In this document: positions 36,862-37,185 of the stretch, piece by piece
Numbering within the stretch: the first letter of the stretch is position 1
Layout: each line of letters starts with the position of its first letter
Assembly: GCA_028824685.1 (NCBI GenBank)
Contig: JAPPCZ010000053.1
Location: 21,554-85,553 of the forward strand
Source: Candidatus Poribacteria bacterium
GTDB taxonomy: Bacteria; Poribacteria; WGA-4E; WGA-3G
Length of the DNA: 64,000 bases
Direction of reading: 5' to 3'
Translations under genes and position numbers: made by a program
Notes under the pieces: generated by a model
The model's input: the letters and a program-made list of their open reading frames with translations, nothing else
Told to the model about the DNA's origin: nothing
Databases searched by the model: none

Positions 36862-37185
36862 TATACGTTAGAAATTCACGATCTATTTGAATTTTTAGCG
36901 GTAGAGGTGCTTTTTCCGGTTTTCCGGATGCACCGACAGTGTTCAACAGACACTGCCGATGCCGAAGCACTGCCAGAGTATCCTTCTGACAGGCTGGTGT
37001 CTATCATAACACGCACAGACCTTATATGTCTACGTGTAATAATAGAGACCAGCAGCCTCTATAGAGATAGTAAAAACGGACACATACCAAATCAACGGTA
37101 TGAACGCCATTTAGGCGTTCCCCGCCTATTTCTGTAGTCTGTCAAGTATATTTAACCGACTCAATTATGATAGAGGAGGCACAAG
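36862..37185 (+). promoter_or_regulatory. Conserved, apparently structured ~320-nt 5' leader RNA (left copy)
   Basis: Multi-hairpin architecture shared with 47949-48224 (minus strand). Stems are conserved, loops are variable, and substitutions are G-U compatible. Ends in GAGGAGG-N6-ATG. Confidence 0.55.
37088..37121. mobile_element. R4 mini-element: a 34-nt insertion present in the left leader and absent from the right leader
   Basis: Left: GGACACATAC[CAAATCAACGGTATGAACGCCATTTAGGCGTTCC]CCGCCTATTTCTGT. Right arm (gene direction): GGACACATACCCGCCTATTTCTGT. Confidence 0.75.

What the first reader, a model, noticed from the sequence alone, without database searches (positions are those of the whole stretch)
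37088..37121. A 34-nt mobile hairpin element caught as a filled versus empty site, nesting inside other repeats
The two leader copies differ by a clean 34-nt insertion. Left: ACATAC[CAAATCAACGGTATGAACGCCATTTAGGCGTTCC]CCGCC. Right: ACATACCCGCC. The insert is a member of the R4 family, which has a 7-bp stem hairpin (GAATGCC/GGCATTC or GAACGCC/GGCGTTC) plus the tail ATA(G/C)CGTTGATTTGG. Other R4 copies sit exactly inside the GTA triloop of R3 mini-hairpins (17041-17076, about 23793-23828, about 23877-23913). Others lie inside R1 units (about 5516-5548), inside a MITE-C TIR (about 30276-30335), and as compound versions (about 4040-4140, 7715-7790, 21440-21515, 24056-24135, 34805-34990, 58720-58990, 62450-62560). 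Insertions lie just 3' of (C/G)(C/G)G with no obvious duplication. That pattern, a hairpin and no TSD or TIR, fits single-strand Y1 (IS200/IS605 TnpA or RAYT-type) mobilisation.
Basis: partly seen in the sequence, partly recalled or inferred. Interest (0 to 1): 0.7.

Follow-up and report, generated by a model that had tools for sequence, protein, structure and literature searches.

The report
Tiny mobile hairpin repeat in Poribacteria
A 34-36 base DNA hairpin that has spread through the genomes of sponge-symbiont Poribacteria, almost always landing next to a CG and often inside the loops of other small repeats, is caught here as a new insertion in one of two duplicated gene leaders; it is among the smallest mobile DNA elements with clear filled and empty sites, and the enzyme that moves it was not found.

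Summary
Window 37088-37121 is a clean 34-nt indel between two paralogous operon leaders. Leaders from two other species polarise it as an insertion in the left copy.

The insert belongs to "R4", a 35-36 nt family. Its parts are an invariant single-stranded head (CCAAATCAA), a basal stem (CGGt/cCCG), an invariant TAT bulge, a 7-bp stem with compensatory changes, and a variable 4-5 nt loop.

An exact 20-mer of R4 occurs in at least 32 Candidatus Poribacteria MAGs. No R4 copy lies inside a long ORF.

Filled/empty pairs give a sharp rule: X|CG becomes X[CCAAATCAACG...hairpin...CC]CG. There is no duplication and the orientation is fixed within each host type. The usual targets are loops or feet of other REP-like hairpins, which gives nested arrays. 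The window copy is 2 nt short of this rule, because its target already carried the CCCG tail.

One sister copy (17040-17077) is absent at the same locus in another sample.

The Y1 idea is only partly supported. The features fit a RAYT-like HUH enzyme, which has a precedent for a dinucleotide cleavage site. No cognate gene was found. The IS200 TnpA in the window has unrelated ends. R4 lacks the GTAG tag.

Verdict: a real, undescribed REP/SDR-like mobile hairpin with an unresolved mechanism.

The parts
37088..37121 (+). The 34-nt R4 insertion of the finding. It can equally be placed at 37087-37120 or 37089-37122. With the pre-existing CCCG to its right it forms a complete R4 at 37087-37124.
   Evidence: 60.3 bits
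48007..48017 (-). Empty (ancestral-state) site ACATA|CCCGCC in the paralogous right leader.
36827..37185 (+). Left leader that received the insertion. It carries a sigma-70-like promoter (TTGACA 36827-36832, TATAAT 36850-36855) and a conserved structured 5' UTR. R4 sits 64 nt upstream of the ATG of the 86-aa ORF (37186-37446).
17040..17077 (-). R4 (C-type, CGCT/AGCG basal stem) inserted at CCTA|CGGGAC in an R3 mini-hairpin loop. The same locus is empty in another sample (L128).
23791..23827 (-). R4 (C-type) in an R3 loop. The paralogous empty R3 is at 18210-18222.
23876..23912 (-). R4 (G-type) in an R3 loop. The paralogous empty R3 is at 18160-18172.
18160..18222 (+). Two empty R3 mini-hairpins (GCTCCTACGGAGC and GTTCCTACGGAAC). 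Their flanks are about 97% identical to the filled pair at 23791-23912.
52725..52762 (-). R4 (C-type) in the loop of a GGCGGGG...CCCCGCC hairpin.
58721..58784 (+). Composite R4: a head with AAATCAAG 8-mer repeats followed by two hairpins.
62509..62556 (.). Palindromic R4 variant, with two heads in inverted orientation sharing one hairpin: AAATCAACGGTATGAATGCC ATTA GGCATTCATACCGTTGATTT.
32542..32577 (+). Sister family R1h. It has the same CCAAATCAACG head and a CGCCAAATGCG hairpin, is 34 nt long, and is inserted at the same CG of an R3 loop.
5514..5550 (+). R1h copy inserted at GTAGGT|CGGGTAGAGC in a GTAG-tagged REP (R1).

Best explanation
R4 is a non-autonomous mobile DNA hairpin of 35-36 nt that is specific to Candidatus Poribacteria.

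Anatomy, 5' to 3':
- an invariant unpaired head, CCAAATCAA
- a basal stem, CGG(t), which pairs with (c)CCG
- an invariant unpaired TAT
- a 7-bp stem (GAATGCC/GGCATTC and compensated variants)
- a free 4-5 nt loop

Insertion rule (shown): it enters DNA in a fixed orientation within each host type, immediately 5' of (or within) a CG dinucleotide, without target duplication. The target CG becomes the closing pairs of the basal stem. Favoured sites are loops and feet of other REP-like hairpins, so elements nest like Russian dolls.

The 37088 copy (shown): it is a derived insertion into the 5' UTR of one of two paralogous operons. That site already carried CCCG, which is the R4 tail, so only 34 nt were added.

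Mechanism (inferred, not shown): R4 moves as single-stranded DNA through a trans-acting HUH/Y1 enzyme of the RAYT / IS200-like kind. This enzyme would recognise the head, the bulge and the hairpin, and would cut at a C|G dinucleotide.
For: Insertion and polarity:
- The gap is a clean 34 nt.
- Two outgroup leaders, L120 and L121, lack R4 and match the right copy in length.

Independent mobility:
- Two further filled/empty pairs lie in the window, with flanks about 97% identical.
- Across 113 Poribacteria loci there are 49 and 41 filled/empty pairs by two methods.
- The 17040 locus is empty in another sample.

Target:
- At least 11 distinct host contexts all read X|CG. CG frequency is 0.055, so chance is about 1e-14.

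Structure under constraint:
- 7 of 11 pairs show changes on both sides, in 42 cells; 0 of 500 shuffles reach this.
- The head and the TAT bulge are invariant in 109 distinct copies from at least 32 species-representative genomes.
- The DNA fold has z about -4.

Location: 0 of 139 copies lie inside ORFs of 150 aa or more.

Compatibility with Y1:
- It is a hairpin element with no TSD, no TIR and a fixed orientation within each host type.
- E. coli TnpA_REP cuts inside a dinucleotide (C|T) that is set by two guide bases (PMC3479197).
- The host repeats are GTAG-tagged REP/REPIN-like. In other bacteria such repeats go with RAYTs (PMC3733652).
- A Y1 TnpA exists in this genome.
Against: - No Y1 gene is associated with R4. 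The IS200 copy in the window (about 55521-56255) has unrelated hairpins and ends.
- No RAYT or R4-flanked gene appeared in about 1 Mb sampled.
- R4 carries GTAT/CTAT, not GTAG, at the hairpin foot. Most copies are singlets, whereas REPIN doublets are thought to be the mobile REP unit.
- Junctions are not perfectly uniform:
  - The window copy is 2 nt short.
  - L002 and L086 use a 5-nt tail overlap.
  - 39 of 143 copies have an 'AAG AAATC' head.
  - A few sit at non-CG sites.
  A clean Y1 cut-and-paste would not predict this.
- The strand-bias proxies disagree: 27 versus 48 relative to genes, and 51 versus 28 relative to local GC skew.
Confidence: 0.45

Rival explanations
1. No dedicated transposase. 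R4 copies are pasted in by replication template switching (copy-choice or microhomology-mediated) between hairpin repeats. The nascent strand jumps to a donor R4 and returns where the target matches the R4 tail (CG, CCCG, CACCG) or head.
For: - Overlap at the junction varies: 4 nt at window 37088, 5 nt in L002 and L086, and head overlap in L084 and L099.
- Perfect long palindromes occur at 62509-62556 and in L057.
- AAATCAAG 8-mer tandem expansions occur.
Against: - Most pairs share only 1-2 nt of homology. They have exactly the same left end, CCAAATC, whatever the flanking base.
- Tandem R4-R4 junctions follow the CG-only rule rather than maximal overlap.
- Orientation is fixed within each host type.
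- A 9-nt unpaired head and a TAT bulge that are invariant across at least 32 species-representative genomes point to protein recognition.
Confidence: 0.2
2. R4 is moved by a DNA enzyme that is not a Y1 transposase. One candidate is the Rpn/YhgA-like PD-(D/E)XK nuclease family, present at 5925-7004 between REPIN clusters. Another is a recombinase that uses a CG core.
For: - The Rpn-like gene lies between repeats that carry the R4-type head in convergent orientation: 5514 and 5602 on +, 7758 on -.
- No Y1 link to R4 was found.
Against: - Heads occur about once per 3 kb, so this flanking may be chance.
- No conserved association was tested.
- No precedent is known to me for Rpn proteins moving small hairpins.
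Confidence: 0.12
3. R4 is not mobile by itself. Copies multiply only as passengers when larger host repeats (R3, R1 REPINs) duplicate or convert each other.
For: - Many filled sites lie in repeated hosts.
- C-type R4 is found mostly in R3.
- Composites such as the two-hairpin form recur in many genomes.
Against: - There is an insertion into a non-repeat leader.
- At least 11 different host contexts are used.
- Two adjacent R3 units carry different R4 subtypes while the paralogous pair is empty.
Confidence: 0.05
4. The 34-nt difference is a deletion in the right leader copy, for example hairpin-stimulated slippage between CC repeats.
For: A 2-nt CC microhomology flanks the indel.
Against: Homologous leaders in two other species lack R4 and have the same spacing as the right copy. 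Three other samples show the same left-filled and right-empty states.
Confidence: 0.03

Closest known systems
REP / REPIN elements mobilised by RAYT (TnpA_REP) Y1 transposases
   Same: Both are 20-40 nt imperfect palindromes with an unpaired bulge and a conserved 5' extension. Both are extragenic, high in copy number and persistent across a lineage. The RAYT enzyme cuts at a dinucleotide (C|T in E. coli, PMC3479197), which parallels the C|G target here. REPs have been seen inserted inside small palindromes (PMC3733652).
   Different: R4 has a 9-nt head (CCAAATCAA) plus GTAT/CTAT, with no GTAG or CGTC tag. Most copies are singlets rather than inverted doublets. No flanked RAYT gene was found. 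The many clean filled/empty sites and the precise insertion rule are, to my knowledge, not documented for REP singlets.
Cyanobacterial small dispersed repeats (SDR; Elhai et al. 2008, Genome Res 18:1484). Recalled from memory; the paper was not available in the library.
   Same: Both are very small (under 40 nt) hairpin-forming repeats. Both are found nested in one another, are present or absent at related sites, and have no known transposase.
   Different: The phylum, sequence and length differ (SDRs are 21-27 nt). I could not check the SDR target rule or sequences, so this is an analogy and not a membership claim.
IS200/IS605 insertion sequences and their non-autonomous derivatives (PATEs)
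   Same: Both are hairpin-dependent, make no target duplication, have no terminal inverted repeats, and insert in a set orientation next to a short motif. In IS200/IS605 the target is read by base pairing with an internal guide. In R4 the target CG pairs with an internal CG.
   Different: IS200/IS605 elements have two subterminal hairpins (left and right ends) and a 4-5 nt target. R4 has one hairpin and a 2-nt target. The resident IS200 and TnpB elements share no end sequence with R4.
IS elements that target REP loops (IS1397, ISKpn1, IS110/IS621 family; Tobes & Pareja 2006, cited in PMC3116915)
   Same: Both prefer to insert into loops of extragenic palindromes.
   Different: Those are kilobase-sized autonomous elements that carry their own transposase. 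R4 is 35 nt and non-coding.

Membership tests
REP/REPIN-RAYT | Short (20-40 nt) imperfect palindrome; extragenic; many copies | tested here: met
   35-36 nt. The stem is supported by covariation. 0 of 139 copies lie in long ORFs. There are 8 full copies in 64 kb and hits in at least 32 Poribacteria genomes.
REP/REPIN-RAYT | Conserved GTAG (or CGTC) tetranucleotide at one foot of the hairpin | tested here: not met
   The alignment of 109 copies shows GTAT or CTAT 5' of the 7-bp stem, preceded by CCAAATCAAC. There is no GTAG or CGTC at either end. The host repeats R1 and R3 do carry GTAG.
REP/REPIN-RAYT | A RAYT gene flanked by the repeat (REPtron) in the same genome | tested here: inconclusive
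   None was found in the window or in 113 loci (about 0.93 Mb) by phmmer, motif search and flank search.
REP/REPIN-RAYT | The mobile unit is an inverted doublet (REPIN) | tested here: not met
   Most copies are singlets. Only 4 of 143 are the palindromic two-head form.
IS200/IS605-derived non-autonomous element (PATE-like) | Subterminal hairpins at both the left and the right end | tested here: not met
   There is a single hairpin per unit.
IS200/IS605-derived non-autonomous element (PATE-like) | Insertion 3' of a specific 4-5 nt target, with no duplication | tested here: inconclusive
   There is no duplication and orientation is fixed within each host type. On the complementary strand the insertion is 3' of CG. 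Only 2 nt are conserved.
IS200/IS605-derived non-autonomous element (PATE-like) | Ends related to those of a resident IS200/IS605 copy | tested here: not met
   The IS200 copy at about 55521-56255 (hairpin GTGTGAGAAC/GTTCTCACAC) and the flanks of the TnpB gene at 21810-23060 show no R4-like sequence.
MITE (TIR-type) | Terminal inverted repeats and a target-site duplication | tested here: not met
   The ends CCAAATC... and ...TTCCC are not inverted repeats. Overlap at the junction is 1 nt.
Cyanobacterial SDR | Tiny hairpin repeats that nest in one another and show filled/empty sites | tested here: met
   Nested series R3 > R1h > R4 (70 nt) and larger. Filled/empty pairs. This is the behaviour only.
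Cyanobacterial SDR | Sequence relationship to the SDR1-8 consensus sequences | not tested

The most novel reading that the evidence does not exclude
R4 and its sister families that share the CCAAATCAACG head are a minimal single-hairpin transposon class. The element moves as a singlet. It selects its target by pairing an internal CG guide with a CG in exposed single-stranded loops of other hairpins. Its enzyme is either a RAYT-like Y1 with a new recognition code or an enzyme type not yet linked to small repeats.
Probability: 0.25. Interest if true: 0.8.

Novelty: new variant of a known kind. Interest (0 to 1): 0.6.

Why it matters
How REP-like repeats spread is a long-standing open question. 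RAYT-driven transposition has never been seen directly, and REP singlets are usually taken to be immobile remnants.

R4 offers a natural data set that makes the question testable. It has dozens of clean filled/empty sites, a two-base target rule, a defined set of invariant unpaired bases (the head and the TAT bulge), compensatory stem changes, and at least one site that is polymorphic between samples.

It also shows how intergenic regions of an uncultured sponge-symbiont phylum are built up by hairpins nesting in hairpins. One such insertion landed in the 5' UTR of a lineage-specific operon.

Tried and rejected
- **Metagenome scan for the leader.** A scan for a leader 21-mer, meant to find population variants, gave only a chance hit in an unrelated coding sequence.
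- **Exact-protein look-ups.** The 89-aa reading I first used found nothing, because the true ORF is 86 aa. P0003 also found nothing.
- **Other samples at the leader and at three further copies.** The left leader, the right leader and the loci at 23791-23912, 52725 and 58721 are identical to the window in other samples. There is no polymorphism there.
- **Viral contigs.** One chance match in a coding region, with no hairpin.
- **Rfam.** No family matches in the window apart from one tRNA.
- **Search for a Y1/RAYT partner.** Only the window's IS200 came up. The enclosed ORFs were ordinary genes.
- **Strand-bias proxies.** Gene orientation and local GC skew of the 8-kb loci point in opposite directions. 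I treat them as uninformative.
- **Flank complementarity at 37088.** The left flank CATACC can pair with GGTATG inside R4. Apart from R3 hosts, I saw no such complementarity in the flanks listed; I ran no statistical test. I did not build on it.
- **Literature.** Searches for Poribacteria repeats or IS200 found nothing relevant. The Elhai 2008 SDR paper is not held.

Full report
**Observation.** The window holds two paralogous operon fronts. The left one runs on the + strand from about 36780. The right one runs on the - strand from about 48330 down to 47620. Each has a TTGACA-17-TATAAT promoter, a leader of about 300 nt, an 86-aa ORF and then larger genes. Aligned, the leaders differ at this point by a single 34-nt gap: ACATA[CCAAATCAACGGTATGAACGCCATTTAGGCGTTC]CCCGCC against ACATACCCGCC. 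The gap can be slid by two C.

**Polarity.** The downstream 229-aa protein belongs to a multi-copy family that was found only in Poribacteria. I fetched the leaders upstream of two homologues from other species: L120 (64% protein identity) and L121 (57%). Both lack R4. L120 reads ACAAACA-CCTG-CCTATTTCTG, which has the same spacing as the right copy, ACACATA-CCCG-CCTATTTCTG. The 34 nt are therefore an insertion in the left copy, and the deletion alternative is rejected. Contigs from three other samples carry the same states, with the left leader filled and the right leader empty.

**Organism and spread.** They came from 32 assemblies of a collection that keeps one genome per species. Thirty-one are labelled Candidatus or uncultured Poribacteria, and one is labelled only 'uncultured bacterium'. 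The gene content of the window fits a Poribacteria origin: WD40 and TPR repeat proteins, ECF sigma factors and T9SS-tail proteins. The same 20-mer has only a chance coding match in viral contigs.

**Anatomy.** I collected 143 copies, of which 109 are distinct.
- The head A3-A9, the CG at positions 10-11 and the TAT at positions 13-15 are invariant or nearly so.
- The stems are C10-T13 pairing with positions 35-38, and positions 16-22 pairing with 28-34.
- The stems show changes on both sides in 7 of 11 pairs, across 42 cells. None of 500 shuffles reaches this, and the slid controls fall far below.
- Examples of compensated stems are GAATGCC/GGCATTC, GAACGCC/GGCGTTC, GAATGCT/AGCATTC, TCATGCC/GGCATGA, and CGGT..CCCG/ACCG against CGCT..AGCG.
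- The loop is free to vary (4 or 5 nt, more than 25 variants).
- As single-stranded DNA the element folds at -8.4 to -10.7 kcal/mol, with z between -4 and -5.7.
- A covariance model finds 8 full copies in the window and about a dozen partial or compound ones.

**Target rule.** I paired R4 copies with paralogous or orthologous empty sites by two methods.
- Flank regex: 49 of 116 copies were paired.
- k-mer anchoring for any CAAATCAACG head: 41 distinct pairs.

The canonical event is X|CG-Y becoming X-[CCAAATCAACG ... hairpin ... CC]-CG-Y. The insert is 35 nt with a 4-nt loop and 36 nt with a 5-nt loop. One C is ambiguous, there is no duplication, and any base can stand at X. At least 11 distinct host sequences obey the rule. 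CG frequency in the window is 0.055, so chance is about 1e-14. After insertion the target CG pairs with the invariant internal CG and closes the basal stem.

**Hosts and nesting.** The hosts are mostly other small hairpins:
- the loop of R3 (GTCCC-TA|C-GGGAC, more than 30 copies in the window)
- the foot of the GTAG-tagged R1 REP (GTAGGT|CGGGTAGAGC...GAAACCCGAC, which occurs in inverted pairs like REPINs)
- the loops of the R1h and GAATAC hairpins (GCG|CGTAT)
- the foot of GCGCTTACAAAGCG|CGCCTAC
- the 3' end of another R4

Sister families share the head but carry other hairpins, and they use the same CG sites. The result is nested series such as R3 > R1h > R4 (70 nt) and larger. Inside the window, 18110-18290 and 23740-23990 are about 97% identical apart from two 35-nt R4 insertions of different subtype in adjacent R3 loops.

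**Exceptions.**
- The 37088 insert is 2 nt shorter than the rule predicts. Its target already read CCCG, the consensus R4 tail, so the tail overlap is 4 nt instead of 2.
- L002 and L086 show a 5-nt overlap (CACCG).
- A minority of copies have an 'AAG AAATC' left junction (39 of 143). These often come with tandem AAATCAAG 8-mers.
- A few copies sit at non-CG sites where the flank mimics the head (L084, L099).
- Four copies are perfect two-headed palindromes, including 62509-62556.

I cannot explain these with one mechanism.

**Population evidence.** Downstream of the gene at 16087-16905, another sample (L128, 99.4% identical over 963 nt, with an identical protein) reads CCTTAGTCCCG-TAGGGACGATAT. 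The window has R4 at that point (17040-17077). A third sample (L127) has a single hybrid R3 in place of two. The L128 contig later folds back onto a window-like filled copy, so it may join two haplotypes. Even so, the empty junction is contiguous with the unique gene sequence. The other R4 sites I checked are fixed.

**Who moves it?**
- The window encodes an IS200-type Y1 TnpA at 55761-56237. Pfam Y1_Tnp gives 1.3e-38. The NCBIfam IS200 model scores above its cut-off, and the RAYT model scores 33 bits against a cut-off of 80.
- Comparison with another copy bounds the IS200 element at about 55521-56255. Its hairpins and ends are unrelated to R4, and no R4 flanks it.
- A TnpB gene (21810-23060) and an Rpn/YhgA-like gene (5925-7004) are also present.
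- In the 0.93 Mb of other Poribacteria DNA I found no Y1 ORF. I also found no transposase-like ORF bracketed by inverted R4 heads. That sample is under 1% of those genomes, so it is a weak negative.

**Mechanism.** The following are shown: R4 is an insertion, it targets CG, it makes no duplication, its orientation is fixed within each host type, its structure is constrained, and its unpaired bases are invariant.

The following is inferred: a trans-acting HUH/Y1 enzyme works on single strands. The inference rests on four points.
1. Only hairpin-reading single-strand transposases are known to give this combination of features.
2. E. coli TnpA_REP specifies its cut by just two bases, C|T, through two guide bases next to the hairpin (PMC3479197). 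A C|G site is therefore plausible for a relative.
3. The genome is full of GTAG-tagged REP-like repeats, which in other bacteria go with RAYTs (PMC3733652).
4. Hairpin loops and feet are the places where single strands are exposed.

Against the inference stand the missing enzyme, the missing GTAG tag, the singlet habit and the irregular junctions. The irregular junctions give some weight to template switching. The strand-bias proxies conflict with each other.

**Comparison and novelty.** R4 behaves like a REP and like the cyanobacterial SDRs (the latter from memory), but it fails the defining GTAG and doublet features of REP/REPIN. It also fails the two-hairpin feature of IS200/IS605 derivatives. 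The library searches found no description of Poribacteria repeats. I rate it a new variant of a known kind: a tiny REP/SDR-like mobile hairpin with an unusually clear insertion rule. Interest is moderate to high because the rule and the invariant bases make the mobilisation question directly testable.

Noticed in passing
window 55521-56255 (tnpA 55761-56237, +): A complete-looking IS200 copy with a Y1 TnpA lies in a low-GC stretch (GC 0.38-0.39). It has a left hairpin at 55708-55734. Another sample carries a 98.8% identical copy with a different left flank.
   Followed up: partly
window 21810-23060 (-): A stand-alone TnpB (OrfB_IS605 plus Cas12f-like TNB domain, 416 aa) with no adjacent TnpA. 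A REPIN with nested hairpins lies 250-400 bp downstream.
   Followed up: partly
window 5925-7004 (-): An Rpn/YhgA-like PD-(D/E)XK 'Transposase_31' gene sits between REPIN clusters. Their CCAAATCAACG-head elements point toward the gene (5514 and 5602 on +; 7758 on -). This could be chance, or the gene could be a candidate partner.
   Followed up: no
window 36866-37087 (+) and 48011-48222 (-); L120 655-880; L121 650-880: A conserved, structured leader of about 220 nt lies upstream of a Poribacteria-specific operon family. RNAalifold gives 62 pairs, 8 of them with compensatory changes among 4 sequences. There is no Rfam match. It may be an undescribed cis-regulatory RNA.
   Followed up: partly
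window 37186-38132 (+) versus 46945-47951 (-): The leader and the 86-aa ORF are about 90% identical between the two operons. The next proteins (229 and 248 aa) are only 42% identical. This suggests a shared 5' module kept alike by conversion, or reused in front of divergent genes.
   Followed up: no
window 36910-36930 (+): The left leader also has an 11-nt surplus (TTTTCCGGTTTTCCGG against TTTTCG in the right copy). It looks like a tandem 8-mer duplication that forms a CCGG-TTTT-CCGG mini-hairpin.
   Followed up: no
window 15690-15830, 17000-17180, 18150-18225, 30085-30230, 32450-32545, 35080-35225, 42615-42710: More than 30 copies of the R3 unit (TATAAACATATCG-TCCC-TAC-GGGA), often in arrays with about 50-nt spacing and in inverted groups. 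The loop reads GTAG on the other strand. The ACATA(N)CG part is complementary to the CG(N)TATG of R4.
   Followed up: partly
L127 and L128 versus window 16975-17130: The R3 array downstream of gene 16087-16905 has three structural alleles in different samples: two R3 units with R4, two R3 units without R4, and one hybrid R3. The repeat arrays are recombining.
   Followed up: partly
window 58700-58735; L029, L107 and other loci: The R4 head is preceded by 1-4 tandem copies of the 8-mer AAATCAAG. This junction type is not explained by the CG rule.
   Followed up: partly
window 11959-13248 and 13745-15034 (-): Two consecutive two-gene cassettes with ORFs of identical length (154 aa and 264 aa) and no Pfam match. 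They look like a tandem duplication.
   Followed up: no
window 50051-50663 (+), inside ORF 49713-51425: A TPR protein gene contains seven near-identical 102-nt (3 x 34 aa) tandem units.
   Followed up: no
window 62718-63998 (-): A fusion of an N6/N4 DNA methylase and an HNH endonuclease. The palindromic R4 variant lies about 160 bp beyond its stop codon.
   Followed up: no
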